A stretch of DNA of 64,000 nucleotides from a virus (Duplodnaviria; Caudoviricetes), in the IMG/VR virus record IMGVR_UViG_3300010885_080481. One strand, 5' to 3'. The notes beneath the pieces were generated by a model that did not search any database, had not been told where the DNA came from, and was given only the letters and a program-made list of their open reading frames with translations. Positions 6,025 to 56,842 of this stretch are shown piece after piece. Position 1 is the first letter of the stretch. Every line of letters begins with the position of its first letter. Made by a program: the position numbers and the translations under genes.

Positions 6025-6053
6025 AAATTAATGTTTTTAGTAAGAGGTGTTCA
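6025..6053 (-). promoter_or_regulatory. TGAACA-N17-TAATTT promoter, 7 nt before the Mre11-Rad50 ATG
   Basis: Read directly; the TGA is the primase stop codon. Confidence 0.55.
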
Positions 6054-7034
6054 AAGTTTAAAGCTGGTGGTCATCGCTTTTGATAACTTATTAATAAATA
6101 AATCATTCCAGCTGAGTGGTCTGGCTTCTGATAGTGCAGTAACAAATTCTGACTTATTCATGCTACCAGGATCTCCCCATGGTCTAACATCCACAACGAT
6201 AACGTCAATGTCATATTCTTGTAACTTCTTTACAATCTTAGGCGTCTTTTTGTTCCACATGTCTCCATCAAGTGCTAAGGCTATCGGCGTGTTATACAAC
6301 AAAATCTTATTAAAGATTTCGTGACGTTCATCTAGGTCTGATCCCAGGATTGCGGTAGAGTTATCAGGACATTTTACAAGATCAAATGCTCCCTCGACCA
6401 GAACAAGACGTTTTTTCCAATCAACATTTATTTCATTAAAAATGATAGGATTTTTATCAACGTCTGGATTATCGTACTTAGGTTTTTTATCTTTGTCTAT
6501 AGCTCTGGCTACGAAGTAGTTCAGATTTCCTGATTCATCGAATGACGGCATGATGATTCTGCGTTTCCATCTAGGTTCATCAGAAACTCCTAATTTAAAG
6601 TACCAAGCATCTCGTTCATTTAATCCTCTAGAATAGAGGTAACGCCAAGCTGCCTTTATATCAGGATCCATTTCATTTGCTAACGTAATCAGCTTAAAGT
6701 CTTTAGGTAGTTCTAATTTAAGCGGTTCTTCTTTCTGTCCTGTGACGAGTTGAGAAACGTCGCCGAAAAAACCAAATAGTTCCTTAAAAATAGAAAGATG
6801 AGTTTGCGTTCCAAACTTTCTTATGAGAGGAATTATAGATCTTGCTTTCCATCCACAAACCCAGCAGTGATTTGCTGAGGTGTCTGTTCGAATAGAGAGT
6901 TTCTTTTTTGTTAGATCAGTTGGAGCGCATATGGGGCAACGAACATCAAAGTTGATACCGTTGGACGATATGCGTCCTTTACCAAAAATGGATTCAAAAA
7001 AATTTATGCTATCAGAGACCGAACGAATGGCCAC
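6051..7034 (-). CDS. DNA primase (Zn finger + TOPRIM)
   Basis: CPIC...HCWVC zinc finger, RIIMP, VLVEGAFD and ALDGD TOPRIM motifs. Confidence 0.88.
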   Translation of the reverse strand: MAIRSVSDSINFFESIFGKGRISSNGINFDVRCPICAPTDLTKKKLSIRTDTSANHCWVCGWKARSIIPLIRKFGTQTHLSIFKELFGFFGDVSQLVTGQKEEPLKLELPKDFKLITLANEMDPDIKAAWRYLYSRGLNERDAWYFKLGVSDEPRWKRRIIMPSFDESGNLNYFVARAIDKDKKPKYDNPDVDKNPIIFNEINVDWKKRLVLVEGAFDLVKCPDNSTAILGSDLDERHEIFNKILLYNTPIALALDGDMWNKKTPKIVKKLQEYDIDVIVVDVRPWGDPGSMNKSEFVTALSEARPLSWNDLFINKLSKAMTTSFKL

Positions 7035-7040
7035 AGAGTC

Positions 7041-7069
7041 ATCGTAACACTAAAATATTGAATTGTTCA
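7041..7069 (-). promoter_or_regulatory. TGAACA-N17-TACGAT promoter, 6 nt before the primase GTG
   Basis: Read directly; the TGA is the resolvase stop codon. Confidence 0.6.
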
Positions 7070-7621
7070 CATGAGGCTCGCTGCTCGGGCGATAACATAT
7101 GCGTCTGTAGCATCTCGACTCCAATCGACAGGTTCTCCATTTTTCTTTTTTGGCCAATCGACGTGTCCCAAATCATTTTCTGACATGTATTTAAAAACTT
7201 GTTCTTTACCAGACATACCAGCTTTTGCGGTTTTTTGCATCTTTATTCCGCATAATTTTCTAGCTGAAGCAGATGAAATGTACTCAGGATCAACACCAAA
7301 AATTTCTCTTGAAATGTAAGAAACAATTCCATTAAATCTCATTAGAGTTGTGATAGTTGCAGCTGAGGACATACCTGTTCTGAAACCCATCAGGGGTTCT
7401 TCTAACGCTACTCGATATGTTCCTGGATATTTTTTGGATAGACCTCTTAACTCTAAGTTTGTTAGGTCTGCTTTTTCCCAAAAAGTTTTACACTTCTTGA
7501 ATTCGATACGATCGAGGTGAAGGATTTGAGACCCTCTATCATCAGGCGTGATTTCTGAATTGAGTATACAGATTCCTGTGACAGACGTGGAAACATCCAA
7601 TCCAAAAATTATTTTTGACAC
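7067..7621 (-). CDS. RuvC-like Holliday junction resolvase
   Basis: IFGLDVSTSVTG, ALEEP and DATDAYVIA RNase H-fold acidic motifs. Probable GTG start at 7621 (track ORF begins at 7657). Confidence 0.8.
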   Translation of the reverse strand: MSKIIFGLDVSTSVTGICILNSEITPDDRGSQILHLDRIEFKKCKTFWEKADLTNLELRGLSKKYPGTYRVALEEPLMGFRTGMSSAATITTLMRFNGIVSYISREIFGVDPEYISSASARKLCGIKMQKTAKAGMSGKEQVFKYMSENDLGHVDWPKKKNGEPVDWSRDATDAYVIARAASLM

Positions 7622-22129: not shown

Positions 22130-23521
22130 TTATAGTATCTGGGATGCCAAAGTAGCCAATTCGCTTCTTTCACCTTTCAACATGGTAACGTGGCCGGCAA
22201 TGTCATACTCTTTGAACTTTTCGATAGCGTACGTTAAACCGCATGTGTATGCGTCCACGTGAACGTTATCAATCTGTTCAATATCACCAGTTAGAACTAT
22301 CTTAGTTCCGTCTCCTACACGCGTGATGATTGTCTTTAGCTCGTGCATCGTTAGATTTTGAGCTTCGTCAATTACTATAAAAGAATTTGGAATTGATCTT
22401 CCACGTATAAACGTAATGGCTTCAATCTCAATCAATCCTTTTTCTTGCATCAAAGAAAGATAAGCGTTACTATCCGTTTTATTCCAATTACCTTCAGTTT
22501 TTGTGTTACCTCTGACTCTTGAAGCATTGCCTCTTTTATTGCCCATTAAGAAATTGAGGTTGTCTTTGATGGGAGAAATCCAAGGCTCCATTTTTTCTTG
22601 TAATGTACCTGGTAAGAATCCGATATCTTTTCCGACTGGTTGAACTGGCTTTGTAACGATTAGCTTAGAGTAATGAGCAACATCTGGATTGCCTATCCCT
22701 TTTAATTGTTCGAGCGCAGCAGAGAGGGCGAGTAAAGTTTTACCAGAGCCGCTAAGACCTACCAAAGTTAAAAGCTTGACCTGCGGATCAAACAGTAAGT
22801 CTAAAGAAAATGCCTGTTCTTTATTCCTGGGTTTTAATCCAAAAACACTTTCAAATTTGTTGATAGGAATAAGCTTTTTAATTCCATCGATTATTTTAAG
22901 CTTGGTTATGGCCGACTTGACCGTCTTTTCTTCCTCAACATGCTTGATTATGATGATCTGATTTGGATATTGGGCCTGGGGGAAATTTACGACTAATTCT
23001 TCATTTATGTAAAAAGAGTCTATGTCTTCCTCAGGAAGCTCTACCACTTCTACACCTTTATAGAATGTTTTTGGATCGTTAGTAACTCTTAGTTTTAAAT
23101 AGTCTTCAGATGCTATACCTAGTGCATCGCATTTTATTCTTACGTTGATATCTTTAGACACCAAGATATAATCTCTTGGTAAACCCAACATTAAGCTGAT
23201 TATTAGGTTATCTGCCTTAGTTGGATCAAGCTCTGTCGGAAGTTTTTCTTTTGCAATGGATGAATCCACTGACACAACGCGAAGAATACCGCCGTCAGAT
23301 AAAGTTACTCCATTTATCAAGCTGTTATCAGAAGATCTCATGCCATCCAACGTTCTACTGACGCTGCGGGCATTGTGACCAACTTCATCCATTCTACTTT
23401 TATGATGATCTAGTTCTTCCAGAACAACCATTGGTATAATAACATCATTATCCTGGAATGAAAAGATTGAGTTAGGATCGTTTAATAATACGTTTGTGTC
23501 CAGGACGTAAGTTTTTTTCAT
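22130..23521 (-). CDS. phoH: PIN-PhoH (PhoH2/YlaK-type) protein
   Basis: YVLDTNVLL PIN start, GLSGSGKT Walker A, FIRGRS, VIDEAQN Walker B. Start moved to the ATG at 23521. Confidence 0.92.
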   Translation of the reverse strand: MKKTYVLDTNVLLNDPNSIFSFQDNDVIIPMVVLEELDHHKSRMDEVGHNARSVSRTLDGMRSSDNSLINGVTLSDGGILRVVSVDSSIAKEKLPTELDPTKADNLIISLMLGLPRDYILVSKDINVRIKCDALGIASEDYLKLRVTNDPKTFYKGVEVVELPEEDIDSFYINEELVVNFPQAQYPNQIIIIKHVEEEKTVKSAITKLKIIDGIKKLIPINKFESVFGLKPRNKEQAFSLDLLFDPQVKLLTLVGLSGSGKTLLALSAALEQLKGIGNPDVAHYSKLIVTKPVQPVGKDIGFLPGTLQEKMEPWISPIKDNLNFLMGNKRGNASRVRGNTKTEGNWNKTDSNAYLSLMQEKGLIEIEAITFIRGRSIPNSFIVIDEAQNLTMHELKTIITRVGDGTKIVLTGDIEQIDNVHVDAYTCGLTYAIEKFKEYDIAGHVTMLKGERSELATLASQIL

Positions 23522-23543
23522 ATTGATATTCAACAATCTTGTT

Positions 23544-23571
23544 TGAACAATGTAACTTTTTTGCCTAAAGT
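23544..23571 (+). promoter_or_regulatory. TGAACA-N16-TAAAGT promoter of the sigma4-only gene
   Basis: In the divergent phoH/sigma4 intergenic region. Confidence 0.45.
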
Positions 23572-23583
23572 ATAAACAAATTA

Positions 23584-23841
23584 ATGAAGAAAAGTTTACC
23601 AATTTTAAACGAAGCAAACAAATGTTTTGAAGTGCATGCTGCTTATAAGGTCTGTTGCCAAAAAAAATCTTGCAAAAATTACATAGAAAATGCATCAACA
23701 CAAAATTGTGTGATTATTGCAGCTCAAAAAGGACCTCACACACTTCAAAATATCGGTAAGATATACGGATTAACTAGAATGAGAATATGCCAAATTGAAA
23801 AGAATATCATTCAAAAATTGAAGAATTCTATAGACATCTAA
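23584..23841 (+). CDS. stand-alone sigma-70 region 4 HTH protein with Cys-rich N-terminus
   Basis: HTLQNIGKIYGLTRMRICQIEKNIIQKLK matches the sigma4 pattern TLEEVG..F.VTRERIRQIE.KAL.KLR; N-terminal C..H...CC...C...C. Confidence 0.8.
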   Translation: MKKSLPILNEANKCFEVHAAYKVCCQKKSCKNYIENASTQNCVIIAAQKGPHTLQNIGKIYGLTRMRICQIEKNIIQKLKNSIDI

Positions 23842-24312
23842 TCACATTTTCTTTAAGGCATTTTTCTTTTTTGAAAATCTATCTTGAGATGCATTTTGAA
23901 ATAAAGGTTGCTTTTCTTCAAAAACTTCTTTTAGTTTCATTTCTGTTTGCTTAACTGTTTGTACTTCAACAGCTTCTTCTTTTTCCAATGAAAGTTCAAA
24001 CGTTGCTTCTTCTTCTTGGGGTTGCGAAGTTTCTACGTTTGCTACTTCTTGTTGCGACGTAGCTTCTAAGTTGACTTCTTCTTTGATAACTTCAACAATT
24101 TCCTTCTCTTCTTGAGAAGGAGGCATCGGAAGTTTTACTTCTTTTTTCTCTTGAGCTTCTGCTTTAATTGTAGCTTCTTTTGTTTGCTTTAAGGTAAAAT
24201 CTTTTTTACTTTTTTGAGACAGTTTACCATTTTTGTTCAAAGAAGCATGAGGCTTTTTTGGATCTAATCCTAGGTTCATGATGTCAATTAGTATTGCTCG
24301 TGGGGCAGGCAT
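23842..24312 (-). CDS. hypothetical protein with E/K-rich disordered C-terminus
   Basis: ATG at 24312 with SD AGAGGA; low-complexity acidic/basic tail. Confidence 0.6.
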   Translation of the reverse strand: MPAPRAILIDIMNLGLDPKKPHASLNKNGKLSQKSKKDFTLKQTKEATIKAEAQEKKEVKLPMPPSQEEKEIVEVIKEEVNLEATSQQEVANVETSQPQEEEATFELSLEKEEAVEVQTVKQTEMKLKEVFEEKQPLFQNASQDRFSKKKNALKKM

Positions 24313-24403: not shown

Positions 24404-24607
24404 TCAAGATTCTGATTTTGTAGACTTTTCAAGAGTCAAAGTAGTTTTCACTAAGTCTCCTGCTTTAGTCTTTAATTCTCTTAATCCTTTTCTAACTCTA
24501 ACTCCGGCCGCCGCAACACCTTTTGCGCTTTTAGCGACGTCGTGTTCAAGAGATTCTACTAAAGATTTTAATTCACTCCATTTAGCTAATACTTCGTTAT
24601 CAGACAT
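24404..24607 (-). CDS. histone H1-like Hc1 family protein (core only)
   Basis: AKGVAAAGVRVRKGLRELK matches the Hc1 core EKGNKAA(A/G).R.R; strong SD AAGGAGG. Confidence 0.75.
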   Translation of the reverse strand: MSDNEVLAKWSELKSLVESLEHDVAKSAKGVAAAGVRVRKGLRELKTKAGDLVKTTLTLEKSTKSES

Positions 24608-26380: not shown

Positions 26381-26995
26381 TCAAGTTCCGATAATTTTAT
26401 CGACGATTCCCAACTTAACTGCTTCTTCAGGCGTAACATAATAATCATGACCAGACTTCATAATCTTTTCAATTTGTTCTTTGGTCATGTCGGATTCTTT
26501 TTGTAACGAAGTCACCATCAAATCTTGTAATCTCTTAAACTCTGATGTCTCGTTCATAGATTCAAATACGTTACCATAGAATCCTCCGGAAATCGGATGA
26601 ATCATCAATCTGGCTGAAGAACCTATCAACCTTTTTCCTTTCACACCAGATGAAAGTAGAAGCACGCCTGCAGACATGACTTTACCTAATGCTATTGTGT
26701 GAACTGGGCATGGTAAGAATCTAATAGTGTCATATAAAGAAAACATTTCATCTACTGATCCACCGTAAGTGGATACGACCAAATGTATTGGTTTATGATT
26801 TTGATTTGCTAGATACAAGAGTTGATAAATTACTGCTGAAATTGATTGCTCACTAACCCCGCCGTAAAGAACAACTATTCTGGAATCTTCGCCGTGTTTT
26901 GCATGGGGAAGCAGGGCCGCGAGGTCTGCTTCATCATGATCAGATTTTTTATTTTTAGAACTAAAAGGAATTTTTACGTCAGTGGATCTTCCCAT
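26381..26995 (-). CDS. clpP: ClpP-like protease subunit
   Basis: STYGGSV, KVMSAG (Ser), MIHP (His), HDYY (Asp), EEAVKLGIVD. SD AAGGAG lies 6 nt before the ATG at 26995. Confidence 0.9.
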   Translation of the reverse strand: MGRSTDVKIPFSSKNKKSDHDEADLAALLPHAKHGEDSRIVVLYGGVSEQSISAVIYQLLYLANQNHKPIHLVVSTYGGSVDEMFSLYDTIRFLPCPVHTIALGKVMSAGVLLLSSGVKGKRLIGSSARLMIHPISGGFYGNVFESMNETSEFKRLQDLMVTSLQKESDMTKEQIEKIMKSGHDYYVTPEEAVKLGIVDKIIGT

Positions 26996-27221
26996 CGTCG
27001 CTCCTTGATACGAATATTTCATCGCCGGCAATTTCTTTGATAACATCAGTTAGATCTTTTACATGGTTAATGTTTTCTAGTTCAAGAGAAAGTAAGTAAA
27101 TAAGAAACATTTGTTGTCTTTGCTTGAGACCAACATTCAATATTTCTTTAACAATTCGCCTACACTCTTCATTTTCTTTTGATATCTTTTCTGAAGATAA
27201 CTGACCATATACTTGTTGCAT
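26979..27221 (-). CDS. hypothetical protein (80 aa)
   Basis: Fills the gap between neighbours; 17 nt overlap with the clpP start. Confidence 0.55.
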   Translation of the reverse strand: MQQVYGQLSSEKISKENEECRRIVKEILNVGLKQRQQMFLIYLLSLELENINHVKDLTDVIKEIAGDEIFVSRSDDGKIH

Positions 27222-28033: not shown

Positions 28034-29212
28034 TCATTCTGCAATAATAGCACCTAAATTTTGAATGGTGTTAAAAATTTTTTCTGAGAATTTTTGTGAT
28101 ACTTTTTTTGTAGCAAAAATTTCTCCGTCTTCGCAAATTCCGAAATCTAATAAAGACTTGATAGCTCTTAGACAATAATCAACAGATTGAGAATCTGCGA
28201 TAAACCTACTAGAATCCGGAATCCTTATAATACATTTGTTGTCTGCTAGTCTTTTCATTCTAGCTTCATAAACTTCTTCAGCTCCAGGAGATGAATCTAA
28301 TTTTTTCATTAGATTTTTTAAGTGAATTCTTACTTGCTGCTTTGTTTTTTTGTTTTTTATTGATATAGAATTGTTATTTATGCTTATTTCATCAACAGTT
28401 GATGAATCTGATAAACTAACAGAAGATATCAATTGACCTAAATTACTGGATATAGGATTAACTCCTACTATTACGCTAATGTCTACCATGGAGTTGATTC
28501 CATCTAAGTCGAAAGGCATAGAAATCGGATAAACAAACATTGTAGATCTTTTTCTATTAACTTCCATTGTTGATAAAACATCATCATGAAAGCCGCGAGA
28601 AAATATAATGACTTGGTGTTTGCTGTTGACTGCTTCTTCAAAAATTTTATTTAATTCAGAAACAGAATCAACAAATCCGTCGATCGTTATGACTTTTGGA
28701 TGTAGTATCCTAACAGAAGAAGTAAAAGTCTTGCATTTGAATTCATAAAATGATGAAACTTCCAGCGAAGTGGCGTTGTTGAAACTTTTTTCAACAACAA
28801 TTTTTCCATGAAATCCAGAAATTTTAATAGCTTCTAGCAGTAAACTTTTTAGTTTACTGTCATCTACATATTTAGAAACAACATTTTCAATGTCTGAAAA
28901 TTTAGGATGAAAAGTTTTCTCATCTATAAAAACTTTTCTAGTTTCAGAAAAATCTATAACATTTTTTAATGTTACAAAAAATCCGCCTGCAGACAATCTT
29001 TCAGCCAAAAAACAATTTTCTAAAATCAGTTTATAGATTAAGCTTTCTAATTCGTTTTCAAACTTAAAGTTTAAGAAATTTTGAAAAGCTGATTTTACGG
29101 CTATGTTTTCTTTAGCACTATTCAAAAACAAATTTGATTTATACAAACTACGAATTGTATAAATAACATTTTTTGTTGCTAAATCAATATCGCTTGTTAA
29201 GAAAACAGACAT
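28034..29212 (-). CDS. degenerate, truncated GroEL-like chaperonin
   Basis: LLEAIKISGFHGKIVVE, apical-domain pattern (HPKVITID...QVIIFSR...TMEVN...DISVIVG), EARMKRLA and VDYCLRAIKSLLDFG align by eye with GroEL; GDGTTT absent. Confidence 0.75.
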   Translation of the reverse strand: MSVFLTSDIDLATKNVIYTIRSLYKSNLFLNSAKENIAVKSAFQNFLNFKFENELESLIYKLILENCFLAERLSAGGFFVTLKNVIDFSETRKVFIDEKTFHPKFSDIENVVSKYVDDSKLKSLLLEAIKISGFHGKIVVEKSFNNATSLEVSSFYEFKCKTFTSSVRILHPKVITIDGFVDSVSELNKIFEEAVNSKHQVIIFSRGFHDDVLSTMEVNRKRSTMFVYPISMPFDLDGINSMVDISVIVGVNPISSNLGQLISSVSLSDSSTVDEISINNNSISIKNKKTKQQVRIHLKNLMKKLDSSPGAEEVYEARMKRLADNKCIIRIPDSSRFIADSQSVDYCLRAIKSLLDFGICEDGEIFATKKVSQKFSEKIFNTIQNLGAIIAE

Positions 29213-29218
29213 CTATAT

Positions 29219-29246
29219 ATCATAGATCAATTCTTATAAATGTTCA
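29219..29246 (-). promoter_or_regulatory. TGAACA-N16-TATGAT promoter, 6 nt before the GroEL-like ATG
   Basis: Read directly; the TGA is the upstream gene's stop. Confidence 0.6.
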
Positions 29247-29858
29247 AAATACTTTAAATTGATTCATGATATAAGCATGAAATATCTTACCAAGTACGCC
29301 GAATAAAGCTGTACCTAAAGTCAAGGCGAGCCATTTAATAGCTCCAGCCTGTCTTTCGTACCACTTTTGAAGTTCTTTTAAAACTTCAGCGTGCTCTCTT
29401 AGTATTTTTTCAACATCAGCTTCTTCTATTTCTTCTTTTTCAGCAAGCTTATCTTTACTTTCTTTCCAACTTTTTATATATTTTATTTCTTCTTCTAAGT
29501 TTTCTACTCTTTCAACTTCTGCAGTTTGATTTTCTACGTTTTTTATTCTTGCGTATAATCCGCTATCAGGATCATAAAGTACATCTCTTATATCATCGAC
29601 TTTTTCTACTAATTTTTCTTGAGATTGTTCTATTTTTTCTATCTTATACATCAAAGTAGAAAAGCCACCATTCATCGCCGGAGCTGATAGGATCCTATTT
29701 TGCATTTCAGCAATTTGCTTACGATTATGTTCTAAAGCTGCTAACGCTGCTTTAGATTCCGGTGCAGAATCAATGATTTCTTTTTTGTCCTTGCGAGGAC
29801 GACTTCTTTTTTCTGAAACAACAGAAACTTTTTTTTCAGTCGTTTTTTTAGTAGGCAT
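29244..29858 (-). CDS. coiled-coil protein with C-terminal transmembrane helix
   Basis: Basic N-terminus, long heptad-rich region, AIKWLALTLGTALFGVLGKIF hydrophobic helix. Holin-like role possible but unsupported. Confidence 0.6.
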   Translation of the reverse strand: MPTKKTTEKKVSVVSEKRSRPRKDKKEIIDSAPESKAALAALEHNRKQIAEMQNRILSAPAMNGGFSTLMYKIEKIEQSQEKLVEKVDDIRDVLYDPDSGLYARIKNVENQTAEVERVENLEEEIKYIKSWKESKDKLAEKEEIEEADVEKILREHAEVLKELQKWYERQAGAIKWLALTLGTALFGVLGKIFHAYIMNQFKVF

Positions 29859-56059: not shown

Positions 56060-56842
56060 GTGCAAAATACAAGAAATAAAAAAGATCGTAAAGATCTTGA
56101 AAAAAATAAAAAGCCGCAGCCCTCCACAGAAGCTGGAGATACTCTCACAGTTAATCCAAAGTTCTATTTCACCCCTAAAACGCAGGAAGCAATCTGTAAG
56201 TTTCAACAGGCTACTGAAAAACGTGAAAGAGAAAAGTTATACGTAGAAGAGATCTCGCCTGCCTTTGAAAAGTTGGTTGAAAATCTGATCAACATTCATA
56301 AGTTTAGCAGCATGTATGATTCGTATGATGACTTAAAGAGCGACTGCGTCAATTTCTTGTTTGAGACAATACACAAGTTCAATAAGTCGATGGGAACAAA
56401 CGCATTTTCTTATTTTAATGTCGTCGCAAAAAACTGGTTGATAATTAAGACGAAACAAAAAGTTCAAAAAACAAAAAAGAACGTTAGTTTAAACGACGTG
56501 GCTTCATTAACCATGGCTGAGCTACAGACGATAGAAGAATACAACACAATTCCTGCTCAAGATGTAGAGCTAGACAAAGTCGCTCATTCAGCAAAAATTT
56601 TAAAGGTTCTTTATGACATTAGATCTAAAGTCAAGGTAGAGAACGAACTTGCATGCATCAATTCAGTCATCACAATCTTTGAAAACATCAATGATATAGA
56701 CATTCTCAACAAGAGCGCAATTCTTCTTTACATAAGAGAGTTATCAGGTTTGACCCCTAAACAGTTGACGACGTCAATTCAGTCAATAAAAAAACATTAC
56801 AATAAATTAAGACCTGGATTGCTTTTCGACGTATTCGAATAA
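56060..56842 (+). CDS. phage sigma factor (T4 gp55-like)
   Basis: KFYF..., DDLKSDCVNFLFETIHKF...GTNAFSYFNVVAKNWL resembles sigma region 2 of gp55-type factors. Confidence 0.72.
   Translation: MQNTRNKKDRKDLEKNKKPQPSTEAGDTLTVNPKFYFTPKTQEAICKFQQATEKREREKLYVEEISPAFEKLVENLINIHKFSSMYDSYDDLKSDCVNFLFETIHKFNKSMGTNAFSYFNVVAKNWLIIKTKQKVQKTKKNVSLNDVASLTMAELQTIEEYNTIPAQDVELDKVAHSAKILKVLYDIRSKVKVENELACINSVITIFENINDIDILNKSAILLYIRELSGLTPKQLTTSIQSIKKHYNKLRPGLLFDVFE

What the first reader, a model, noticed from the sequence alone, without database searches (positions are those of the whole stretch)
23584..23841. Sigma-4-only protein with rewritten -35 recognition helix and Cys-rich head: candidate promoter-specificity switch
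Seen: the only plus-strand gene of the left arm encodes 85 aa with TRMRICQIE, where sigma70 has TRERIRQIE, plus five N-terminal Cys and a His. Known: E. coli sigma70 R584/E585/R588 read the -35 element. T4 redirects polymerase by remodelling sigma4 (AsiA/MotA) or replacing it (gp33 with gp55). Inference: E-to-M and R-to-C changes predict altered -35 specificity. That fits the TGAAC promoters, one of which precedes this gene. The protein could dock on the beta-flap as a swap-in sigma4, with host sigma or the gp55-like factor at 56060.
Basis: partly seen in the sequence, partly recalled or inferred. Interest (0 to 1): 0.72.

Follow-up and report, generated by a model that had tools for sequence, protein, structure and literature searches.

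The report
Free-standing four-cysteine sigma region-4 protein
An uncultured freshwater giant phage encodes a tiny protein that is just the promoter-reading tip of a bacterial sigma factor fused to a four-cysteine metal-binding head, while the phage's own sigma factor lacks exactly that tip, so the two may work together as a two-piece sigma factor, which is still untested.

Summary
Window 23584-23841 (+) encodes an 85-aa protein that passes Pfam Sigma70_r4. Its recognition helix reads TRMRICQIE, with Met and Cys where E. coli sigma70 has E585 and R588.

The gene is real and widespread. There are 295 close homologues and about 130 clusters at 50% identity, all small, stand-alone and viral. Four N-terminal Cys (CX10CX4CX11C) are invariant. 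Cys69 in the helix is not.

The main new result concerns the phage's own sigma factor. In related phages the RpoD-like sigma always ends 27-29 residues after RLRFGL, has no Pfam region 4 and has no basic recognition helix. All three complete genomes carry both genes. Co-folding of the sigma tail with the small protein gave only weak support (0.60 against a best control of 0.23).

The lineage's promoters use GTGCAA(A) and TTGAAC -35 boxes, not TTGACA.

My best reading (0.4) is a trans-acting -35 reader that completes a two-piece sigma factor. The rivals are an autonomous regulator like LtrA, or a protein that docks on the beta-flap. The flap-docking idea is weakened because the region 4.1 flap motif is kept in the phage sigma and lost in the small protein.

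The TGAAC link is unproven. The simple pattern is not enriched in the window.

The scan had flagged this ORF before from an overlapping window (e1-5319011), and a look-alike in another genome (e1-3009750).

The parts
23584..23841 (+). Gene for the 85-aa stand-alone Cys4 plus sigma region-4 protein
   Evidence: ORF. Pfam Sigma70_r4 at 36.9 bits. 295 homologues. The gene is called independently on at least 22 contigs.
23623..23709 (+). Codons for the four-cysteine module (C14, C25, C30, C42; CX10CX4CX11C), a probable metal site
   Evidence: C14, C25 and C42 are invariant and C30 is present in 133 of 134 family representatives. W33 is present in 107 of 134 and N41 in 123 of 134. The metal itself is inferred.
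23737..23823 (+). Helix-turn-helix equal to sigma region 4.2 (residues 52-80); the recognition helix TRMRICQIEKNIIQKLK is at 23773-23823
   Evidence: Alignment to SigA and RpoD region 4.2. AF2 model with pLDDT 88 and helices 54-61 and 65-83. It superposes on sigma4 at 0.6-1.8 A over 30-39 residues.
23543..23571 (+). The gene's own promoter-like site: TTGAAC, 17 nt, TAAAGT, 12 nt before the ATG
   Evidence: Sequence. The same layout is kept in relatives as T[GT][AGT][AT]AC-N16/17-TAAAAT-like, between the divergent PhoH start and this gene.
22130..23518 (-). Divergently transcribed PIN-PhoH gene, a conserved neighbour
   Evidence: Pfam PhoH E 3e-44 and PIN_4 E 4e-30. The divergent arrangement is seen in nearly all related loci.
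6025..6054 (-). TTGAAC-N18-TAATTT site 7 nt before the Mre11/Rad50-like gene (same promoter class)
   Evidence: Sequence.
7041..7070 (-). GTGAAC-N18-TACGAT site 6 nt before the primase-like gene
   Evidence: Sequence.
29219..29247 (-). TTGAAC-N17-TATGAT site 6 nt before the GroEL-like gene
   Evidence: Sequence. GroEL PHROG hit.
56060..56842 (+). gp55-like late sigma factor, an alternative partner
   Evidence: phrog_234 at E 1.5e-7. The family is found in 5 of 5 related genomes.

Best explanation
The 85-aa protein is a free-standing copy of sigma region 4. Its first half has been rebuilt into a four-cysteine metal-binding module, either Zn or Fe-S. Its second half is an intact region-4.2 helix-turn-helix with a changed DNA-reading face: R, R and Q are kept, E is changed to M and R to C.

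It most likely binds a non-canonical -35-type promoter element. In doing so it would supply, in trans, the -35 reading that the phage's own RpoD-like sigma factor cannot perform. That sigma keeps regions 1.2 to 4.1 but stops where the recognition helix should be. The two proteins would then form a two-piece sigma factor that redirects host core RNA polymerase to phage promoters of the GTGCAA(A) and/or TTGAAC type with a TAnnnT -10.

Shown here:
- The domain identity, the conservation and the invariant Cys.
- The truncated sigma in relatives.
- Co-occurrence of the two genes in complete genomes.
- The absence of TTGACA promoters in the lineage.

Inferred:
- DNA binding.
- The metal.
- The physical partnership.
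- Which promoter box the protein reads.
For: (1) Domain identity.
- Pfam Sigma70_r4 is above its cut-off.
- The HTH aligns to SigA and RpoD 4.2 at 48-57% identity.
- With the deep alignment, AF2 gives pLDDT 88, and the HTH superposes on sigma4 at 0.6-1.8 A.
- One family member, P0216, carries a near-canonical TRERVRQIEAKALRKLRHP helix and tail, so the module derives from a primary sigma.

(2) Residues that touch DNA in sigma4 are kept family-wide.
- T53, L54, R65, R67, Q70 and K73 are conserved.
- The positions matching R584, E585 and R588 vary between clades (RMRxC, SFVRVK, SHVRVY, TRERVR). This is the pattern expected for changing DNA specificity.

(3) Complementary losses.
- In relatives, the phage RpoD-like sigma hits Pfam r2 (80 bits) and r3 but not r4.
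- All 30 aligned members end at one column, 27-29 residues after the invariant RLRFGL, with an acidic tail.
- None of the 120 best homologues (236-341 aa; 118 of them 254-290 aa) carries PF04545.
- The small protein has lost that 4.1 motif: NCVIIAAQ aligns to VLRLRFG.

(4) Co-occurrence.
- All three genomes at least 90% complete (G026, G037, G039) have both genes.
- So do 8 of 10 records at least 50% complete.
- Every sigma-bearing record whose small protein was read out (G005, G021, G037, G039, G043, G046) shows LTRMRICQIE.

(5) Co-folding of sigma residues 185-254 with the small protein and Zn gave the verdict 'weak support'.
- The score was 0.60 and the best of 3 controls was 0.23.
- The mark was reached by 58 of 80 solved complexes and 2 of 110 mismatched pairs.
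- At 0.60 or under it was reached by only 7 of those 80, and by both of the mismatches that passed.
- The runs agree in at least 84% of contacts, and the partner's pLDDT is at least 72.
- My own alignments and a riding zinc make the job unlike the calibration.

(6) Promoter census.
- In G002 and G037, GTGCAA-N16-19-TAnnnT occurs 19 and 22 times upstream of genes against 5 in coding DNA, 35-40-fold per kb.
- TTGAAC-type sites occur 11 times upstream against 9 in coding DNA in G002, about 10-fold.
- TTGACA-N16-18-TAnnnT occurs once upstream in each genome, which is no enrichment.
- The -35 to -10 spacing is the standard 17-18 bp, so whatever reads the box sits where sigma4 sits.
- The only sigma4-type reader found here in these phages is this protein.
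Against: - The two genes are 40-80 kb apart. They are not an operon, unlike sigO-rsoA or sig7-sig8.
- Both are core genes of the lineage, so co-occurrence alone does not show a functional link.
- The co-fold pass is weak, and sigma4-containing complexes are well represented among solved structures.
- A profile-profile comparison found no relation between the sigma tail and the small protein.
- The family also occurs in a very abundant marine clade (recognition helix S[FY][VA]R[VI]KQIE). There, 0 of 17 genome fragments carry a Sigma70_r2 gene and promoters are canonical TTGACA. That test is underpowered: the fragments are 18-44% complete, and only 2 of about 28 comparably small fragments of the jumbo clade (completeness 44% or less; 9 of all 38 records) show the sigma.
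- The truncated sigma of the window's own genome lies outside the window. I did not see it myself. It is reported only by note e1-5319011.
- Which -35 box the protein reads is not determined.
Confidence: 0.4

Rival explanations
1. The protein is an autonomous transcription regulator. It binds its own operator or promoter sites through the sigma4-type HTH and activates or represses host holoenzyme, without being a sigma subunit. This is how the LtrA (Sigma70_r4) late activators of Gram-positive phages work.
For: - Small phage proteins that are little more than a Sigma70_r4 domain are proven activators of late operons (PMC3753634).
- The family exists in marine phages where no phage sigma was found in 17 fragments and promoters are TTGACA.
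- In that clade the gene is translationally coupled to a small upstream gene with a ribbon-helix-helix-like sequence, a typical regulator context.
- DNA-contacting residues are conserved.
Against: - It does not explain why the lineage's own sigma has lost exactly the recognition helix while keeping a conserved tail.
- It does not explain why no canonical -35 boxes are used in that lineage.
- The palindrome over the gene's own -35 box (TTGTT-TG-AACAA) is not conserved in relatives, so there is no sign of a dimeric operator.
- The marine absence of sigma is statistically weak.
Confidence: 0.3
2. The protein docks on the beta-flap tip as a swap-in sigma4. It works with host sigma, or with the gp55-like late sigma as a DNA-reading analogue of T4 gp33.
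For: - A gp55-like factor is present in the window and in 5 of 5 related genomes.
- No gp33 (phrog_254) homologue was detected in 5 genomes, three of them complete. The same search finds T4 gp33 at E 1.6e-33.
- The gene carries an early or middle-type promoter, like the replication genes.
Against: - The region 4.1 helix, which in holoenzyme structures packs on the flap tip (established knowledge, not tested here), is not conserved in this protein. It is conserved in the phage RpoD-like sigma.
- Only the HTH superposes on sigma4. The N-terminal half does not.
- The late promoter motif ATAnTTA has no -35 partner, so a -35 reader is not needed there.
- gp55 itself is only weakly detectable (E about 1e-7), so a diverged gp33 could simply have been missed.
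Confidence: 0.12
3. The protein is a decoy or competitor. A free sigma4 look-alike would occupy -35 boxes, or would bind regulators that target sigma4, to shut down or re-route host transcription.
For: - One family member (P0216) has a recognition helix and tail nearly identical to host-type SigA 4.2. It would be expected to bind TTGACA boxes.
- Phages commonly target the sigma4 and flap interface (T4 AsiA, G1 gp67; established knowledge).
Against: - In the main clade the helix is changed away from the host type and is then held invariant. That fits recognition of a phage-specific sequence better than mimicry of the host.
- No evidence here bears directly on competition.
Confidence: 0.08

Closest known systems
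Region 4 (domain sigma4) of primary sigma70-family factors
   Same: - The Pfam Sigma70_r4 hit is above its cut-off.
- The HTH is 48-57% identical to SigA 4.2 and superposes at under 2 A.
- The equivalents of R584, R586, Q589 and K593, and the TL at the start of the first HTH helix, are kept.
   Different: - It is a separate 85-aa polypeptide without regions 1-3.
- The 4.1 half is replaced by a CX10CX4CX11C module and lacks the LRxRFG helix.
- E585 is changed to M and R588 to C.
Two-subunit (split) sigma factors: B. subtilis SigO-RsoA and Tn916 Sig7-Sig8 (bioRxiv 10.64898/2026.10.01.756105)
   Same: - One protein carries the region-2 type functions and another carries region 4.
- Together they would cover both the -10 and the -35 element.
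   Different: - Here the region-2 partner is a nearly full RpoD-like sigma (1.2 to 4.1) rather than a small fragment.
- The genes are 40-80 kb apart.
- The region-4 piece has a metal-binding head.
- Association with RNA polymerase is untested.
Phage T4 late and middle systems: gp55 with gp33 (and gp45), and AsiA with MotA (sigma appropriation, PMC6755090)
   Same: - It is a T4-like phage that re-addresses host RNA polymerase.
- The -35 reading by sigma4 is removed and replaced by a phage protein.
- A gp55-like factor is present.
   Different: - There is no sequence relation to gp33, AsiA or MotA.
- The phage does not remodel host sigma4. It brings its own sigma without a recognition helix, plus a genuine sigma4-type HTH.
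LtrA (Sigma70_r4) family of late-gene activators of Gram-positive temperate phages (PMC3753634)
   Same: - They are small phage proteins consisting essentially of a sigma region-4-like HTH.
- They are shown to switch on phage promoters.
   Different: - No Cys4 head is described for LtrA.
- They occur in small temperate phages of Firmicutes and sit next to terS.
- I made no direct sequence comparison here.
WhiB-like (Wbl) Fe-S proteins
   Same: - They are small four-Cys proteins that work at the sigma4 and flap corner of RNA polymerase.
- They are also encoded by phages.
   Different: - Wbl proteins bind sigma4. They are not sigma4.
- The Cys spacing is different.
- There was no Pfam WhiB hit.

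Membership tests
Sigma70 region 4 (Pfam PF04545) | Profile match above the curated threshold | tested here: met
   36.9 bits against a cut-off of 24.1, E 2.5e-9, residues 43-80 matching profile positions 12-49 of 50.
Sigma70 region 4 (Pfam PF04545) | Region 4.2 helix-turn-helix geometry | tested here: met
   AF2 model with pLDDT 88. Foldseek rmsd is 0.6-1.8 A over 30-39 residues to sigma4 of many holoenzymes, with probability up to 0.98. E-values are above 0.1 because the match is short.
Sigma70 region 4 (Pfam PF04545) | Canonical -35 contact residues R584, E585, R586, R588, Q589 | tested here: not met
   R65, R67 and Q70 are kept. E585 is replaced by M66 and R588 by C69. This pattern holds in about 70% of family representatives.
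Sigma70 region 4 (Pfam PF04545) | Region 4.1 helix (LRxRFG) that packs on the beta-flap tip | tested here: not met
   The aligned segment is NCVIIAAQ (NCTWVAV aligns to VLRLRFG in P0216). The N-terminal half does not superpose on sigma4.
Two-subunit (split) sigma factor | A partner that carries region 2 but lacks a working region 4.2 | tested here: met
   This was tested in related phages, not in the window's own genome. Pfam finds r2 and r3 but no r4. All 30 aligned members end at one column after RLRFGL plus 27-29 residues. None of the 120 best hits carries PF04545.
Two-subunit (split) sigma factor | A separate polypeptide that carries region 4 | tested here: met
   All family members are 70-146 aa, and no fused form appears among the 150 best representatives.
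Two-subunit (split) sigma factor | The two genes are adjacent or co-transcribed | tested here: not met
   The genes are about 40 kb apart in G002, about 53 kb in G037 and about 82 kb in G026.
Two-subunit (split) sigma factor | The two subunits bind each other and RNA polymerase, and both are needed for transcription | tested here: inconclusive
   The co-fold gave weak support: 0.60 against a best control of 0.23. The mark was reached by 58 of 80 solved complexes and 2 of 110 mismatched pairs, and passes at this level are more often wrong than right without a prior. Binding to RNA polymerase and the requirement for both subunits are not testable with these tools.
T4 gp33 late co-activator (phrog_254) | Sequence membership | tested here: not met
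   The PHROG scan of the protein lists only phrog_351 (sigma factor) and phrog_12564. phrog_254 has no match in 5 related genomes, while T4 itself matches at E 1.6e-33.
LtrA (Sigma70_r4) phage late activators | Sequence relationship beyond the shared Pfam domain; position upstream of terS | not tested
   Known only from PMC3753634. No LtrA sequence was compared. The gene here lies beside PhoH, not terS.
WhiB-like Fe-S proteins | Wbl domain with CXnCX2CX5C | tested here: not met
   No WhiB family appears in the Pfam scan at E up to 10. The Cys spacing here is CX10CX4CX11C.

The most novel reading that the evidence does not exclude
Aquatic T4-like and jumbo phages carry a portable trans-acting '-35 reader'. 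It would be a sigma4 module held together by a four-Cys cluster, possibly a redox- or metal-sensitive Fe-S centre. It would dock on a phage sigma whose own recognition helix has been deleted. Promoter choice, and perhaps its coupling to the host's redox or metal state, would then be set by a swappable 85-aa subunit whose reading helix differs from clade to clade.
Probability: 0.12. Interest if true: 0.85.

Novelty: new variant of a known kind. Interest (0 to 1): 0.68.

Why it matters
Phage take-over of host RNA polymerase is known from a handful of cultured models: T4 AsiA/MotA and gp55/gp33, SPO1, and Xp10. This finding points to a large protein family that I could not find described. It has hundreds of members and is restricted to uncultured aquatic phages.

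The sigma factor's -35-reading domain has been cut loose and given a metal-binding head. In the jumbo lineage that same domain has been deleted from the phage's own sigma.

If the two-piece model is right, it is a natural split sigma factor of a new design. It would explain why these phages use GTGCAA- and TTGAAC-type rather than TTGACA promoters. It would also offer a compact, re-addressable promoter-specificity module.

The model is directly testable with three recombinant proteins and a promoter fragment.

Tried and rejected
**Searches that found nothing**
- tblastn of the protein, and blastn of 8 kb around it, against 50,697 cultured-phage records gave no match. A marine-clade member also gave no match. 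There is no cultured representative.
- The phage sigma has only bacterial-type matches at 41% identity or less in that collection.
- No whole genome is held for the window. The window's own sigma gene, reported by note e1-5319011 as lying 23 kb before the window, could not be read.
- The look-up of encoding contigs gave only contigs of 5-16 kb for the four places it returned.
- Distant family members P0220 and P0265 sit on contigs of about 1 kb, so they gave no context.
- Searching sigma-bearing fragments G040-G047 with the distant-clade profile found nothing. These are fragments, so the result is uninformative.

**Structure**
- The first AF2 model, built on 31 sequences, was poor (pLDDT 59), and I set its fold search aside. 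A 134-sequence alignment gave pLDDT 88.
- VIA-align against 48,161 chains gave no match with Z of 5 or more and nothing covering the Cys4 half. This shows only that no fold was recognised.
- hhalign of the small-protein family against the sigma family found no relation to the sigma tail.

**Promoters**
- TGAAC-N16/17-TANNNT occurs 8 times against 7.3 expected, and TGCAAA-N15-19-TANNNT 9 times against 8.4, in the window. Neither is enriched as a bare pattern.
- The loose pattern GTGCAA-N16-19-TANNNT is only modestly above its reversed control in G039, G026, G046, G003 and G005. The enrichment is clear only when restricted to gene-upstream DNA.
- Bacteroidota-type promoters (TTTG...TAnnTTTG) are not enriched.
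- I found no consistent promoter upstream of the sigma gene.
- The palindrome over the gene's -35 box is not conserved.
- I considered a capsid-targeting leader at the N-terminus (LNE before A). I dropped the idea because the motif is not kept in relatives.

**Tool availability**

Full report
**The observation**

The ORF at 23584-23841 (+) is present as described. It encodes 85 aa from an ATG start, has Cys at 14, 24, 25, 30 and 42, His at 18 and 52, and reads TRMRICQIE at residues 64-72. It is the only credible plus-strand gene among the minus-strand genes that fill 1-29873.

Pfam Sigma70_r4 is hit above its curated threshold: 36.9 against 24.1 bits, E 2.5e-9, residues 43-80. PHROGs and NCBIfam list only sigma-factor families, always through their C-terminal 30 residues.

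A profile of the family aligns residues 51-81 to region 4.2 of solved SigA and RpoD chains. For E. coli RpoD the matched stretch is 570-600. That places R65, M66, R67, C69 and Q70 opposite R584, E585, R586, R588 and Q589.

**It is a real and widespread gene**

A search of 5.8 billion clustered proteins gave 295 homologues of 81-108 aa, all carrying PF04545 only, on contigs up to 357 kb. The identical protein is called on at least 22 contigs from independent samples, always between a PIN-PhoH gene and a K/E-rich protein, an Hc1-like protein and a helicase.

IMG/VR holds 38 close loci on contigs up to 309 kb. An exhaustive profile search found 483 cluster representatives at E up to 0.001 and 93 at E up to 1e-10. 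Those covering both halves are all 70-146 aa. Full-length sigma factors match only through the HTH. The ESM Atlas clusters are 94-100% viral.

No cultured phage carries it.

**Anatomy of the family**

In 31 close members LTRMRICQIE is invariant, although the proteins are otherwise only 53-77% identical.

Across 134 representatives C14, C25 and C42 are invariant and C30 is present in 133. The spacing is CX10CX4CX11C. W33 is present in 107 of 134 and N41 in 123 of 134. C24 and the helix residue C69 are not conserved, so the metal site, if there is one, is made by the four N-terminal Cys. Whether the metal is Zn or Fe-S is inference.

The residues that touch DNA backbone or bases in sigma4 are kept: T53, L54, R65, R67, Q70 and K73. 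The positions matching R584, E585 and R588 differ between clades. RMR[IV]C is found in about 70%. Other forms include SFVRVK, SYVRVK, SHVRVY, SKTRIM and TRERVR.

One member, P0216, has a helix and C-terminal tail almost identical to Firmicute SigA. Its NCTWVAV segment aligns to the VLRLRFG helix of region 4.1. The family is therefore a sigma region-4 domain whose 4.1 half was rebuilt around four Cys.

With a 134-sequence alignment AF2 gives pLDDT 88, with helices at 14-21, 43-49, 54-61 and 65-83. Only the HTH superposes on sigma4, at 0.6-1.8 A over 30-39 residues. No solved fold covers the Cys4 half.

**The phage's own sigma factor**

I found one RpoD-like gene in each sufficiently complete record.

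It hits Pfam r2 (80 bits) and r3 but not r4. Its best solved relatives are RpoD proteins, at E 2e-50. All eight loci, and all 30 aligned members of a much larger family, end at the same alignment column. That column lies 27-29 residues after an invariant RLRFGL, and the tail is acidic, of the form DD..SYPITEEE..VM.GKGLT. None of the 120 best database hits (236-341 aa; 118 of them 254-290 aa) carries PF04545.

HMMER pairs YKITQEQVEK with FDVTRERIRQ. On that alignment every DNA-contacting Arg is replaced and the preceding helix is missing. An alignment by eye instead puts the stop codon at the turn of the HTH. Either way the sigma has no working recognition helix. The downstream ORF encodes an unrelated membrane-type protein.

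The losses are complementary. The sigma keeps the 4.1 helix that packs on the beta-flap tip in holoenzyme structures (established knowledge, not tested here) and lacks the DNA reader. The small protein keeps the DNA reader and lacks that helix.

**Association**

All three genomes at least 90% complete (G026, G037 and G039, two of them with terminal repeats) carry both genes. So do 8 of 10 records at least 50% complete. Every sigma-bearing record whose small protein I read out has LTRMRICQIE.

Both are core genes, so this is compatible with a functional pair but does not prove one. The genes lie 40-80 kb apart.

Co-folding sigma residues 185-254 with the small protein and a zinc ion gave the verdict 'weak support'. 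The score was 0.60 and the best of three controls was 0.23. The mark was reached by 58 of 80 solved complexes and 2 of 110 mismatched pairs. At 0.60 or under it was reached by only 7 of those 80, and by both of the mismatches that passed. The runs agree in at least 84% of contacts and the partner's pLDDT is at least 72. My own alignments and the riding zinc make the job unlike the calibration, and likeness to solved sigma4 complexes could inflate the score.

**Promoters**

The bare pattern TGAAC-N16/17-TANNNT is not enriched in the window: 8 matches against 7.3 expected. However, TTGAAC or GTGAAC, followed by 17-18 nt, TAnnnT and 6-12 nt, precedes the start codons of the Mre11/Rad50-like, primase-like and GroEL-like genes and of this gene itself. 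The gene's own promoter layout is conserved in relatives.

I read two related genomes in full, G002 and G037. A census of hexamers 16-18 nt upstream of TAnnnT gave the following.

| Pattern | G002 upstream / coding | G037 upstream / coding | Enrichment per kb |
|---|---|---|---|
| GTGCAA-N16-19-TAnnnT | 19 / 5 | 22 / 5 | 35-40-fold |
| TTGAAC-N16-18-TAnnnT | 11 / 9 | 3 / 4 | about 10-fold |
| TTGACA-N16-18-TAnnnT | 1 / 8 | 1 / 7 | none |
| ATAnTTA (late motif) | 59 / 27 | 59 / 37 | about 17-20-fold |

The GTGCAAAG promoters head about 45 leaderless mini-genes. In G002 and G026 this array ends next to the sigma gene.

By contrast, the marine clade of the family has a different recognition helix and uses TTGACA (53 sites, 12-fold). 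The lineage that combines a recognition-helix-less sigma with the RMRIC protein is therefore also the one that lacks canonical -35 boxes. The spacing to the -10 is the standard one. This fits a phage-encoded sigma4-type reader. It does not tell which box the protein reads.

The gene's own TTGAAC promoter must first be read by something else.

**Against the two-piece model, and the rivals**

The marine clade gave more than 560 IMG/VR matches, on contigs of 85 kb or less from genomes of about 190 kb. It shows no Sigma70_r2 in 17 fragments. The test is weak, because only 2 of about 28 comparably small fragments of the jumbo clade (completeness 44% or less; 9 of all 38 records) show the sigma.

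In the marine clade the gene overlaps the stop of a small upstream gene with a ribbon-helix-helix-like sequence. That is a typical regulator context.

Small Sigma70_r4-only proteins (LtrA) are proven late activators in Gram-positive phages (PMC3753634). An autonomous regulator is therefore a serious rival.

It is kept alive by the presence of a gp55-like factor and by the failure to detect a gp33 homologue in five genomes, with a positive control in T4.

**Context and novelty**

The lineage matches the 'moraphages' recently described from aquatic metagenomes. Those are freshwater phages of up to 307 kb with an Hc1-like protein and a core sigma-factor orthologous group (PMC12619734). The passages of that paper that my term searches returned mention neither the truncation of the sigma nor this protein.

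Split sigma factors are known: SigO-RsoA, Tn916 Sig7-Sig8, T4 gp55/gp33 and SPO1 gp33/34 (bioRxiv 10.64898/2026.10.01.756105). I class it as a new variant of a known kind.

The scan had already flagged this ORF from an overlapping window (e1-5319011), and a look-alike 92-aa protein in another genome (e1-3009750).

**Limits**

- The window's own sigma gene could not be read.
- Binding, the metal and promoter specificity are all inferred.

Noticed in passing
window 24404-24607 (-): A 67-aa protein matches the chlamydial histone-H1-like family Hc1 (PF07432, E 2.7e-11). This trait is reported for the 'moraphage' lineage of aquatic jumbo phages (PMC12619734).
   Followed up: partly
window 22130-23518 (-): A PIN-PhoH fusion protein whose start codon lies about 65 bp from the sigma4 gene, transcribed divergently. 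The arrangement is kept in nearly all relatives.
   Followed up: partly
window 23842-24312 (-): A K/E-rich 156-aa protein with no family hit. Its stop codon abuts the stop codon of the sigma4 gene (convergent). In the marine clade an acidic protein follows the sigma4 gene on the same strand.
   Followed up: no
G002 (loci L050-L051), about 56.7-75.5 kb; G026 284-309 kb: An array of about 45 GC-rich mini-genes, each behind GTGCAAAGt-N15-TAnnnT-N6-ATG (leaderless geometry). The array ends next to the region-4.2-less sigma gene. In G026 and G039 the -10 is often TGGTAnnnT, which resembles an extended -10.
   Followed up: partly
L178 4657-5246 (marine relative): In a very abundant marine clade the sigma4-type gene overlaps the stop of a roughly 110-aa upstream gene with a ribbon-helix-helix-like motif (LTQSAFFRHMI). 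An acidic protein and a ClpP-like gene follow. These phages use TTGACA promoters, AAGGAG ribosome sites and an ACTATTTA late motif.
   Followed up: partly
protein P0216 (metagenomic family member): A family member whose HTH and C-terminal tail are almost identical to Firmicute SigA region 4.2, behind the same four-Cys head. It looks like a recent capture of a host-type reader.
   Followed up: partly
G002 and G037, whole genomes: ATAnTTA is 17-20-fold enriched upstream of genes (59 sites in each genome) and has no -35 partner. It is the likely promoter of the gp55-like late sigma. No gp33 homologue was detected.
   Followed up: partly
window 28034-29212 (-) and 26381-27046 (-): A GroEL-like gene (phrog_5725, E 4e-11) lies near the sigma4 gene. 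A 221-aa ORF that looks ClpP-like by eye (not scanned) also lies nearby. A ClpP-like ORF is likewise close to the sigma4-type gene in the marine clade.
   Followed up: no
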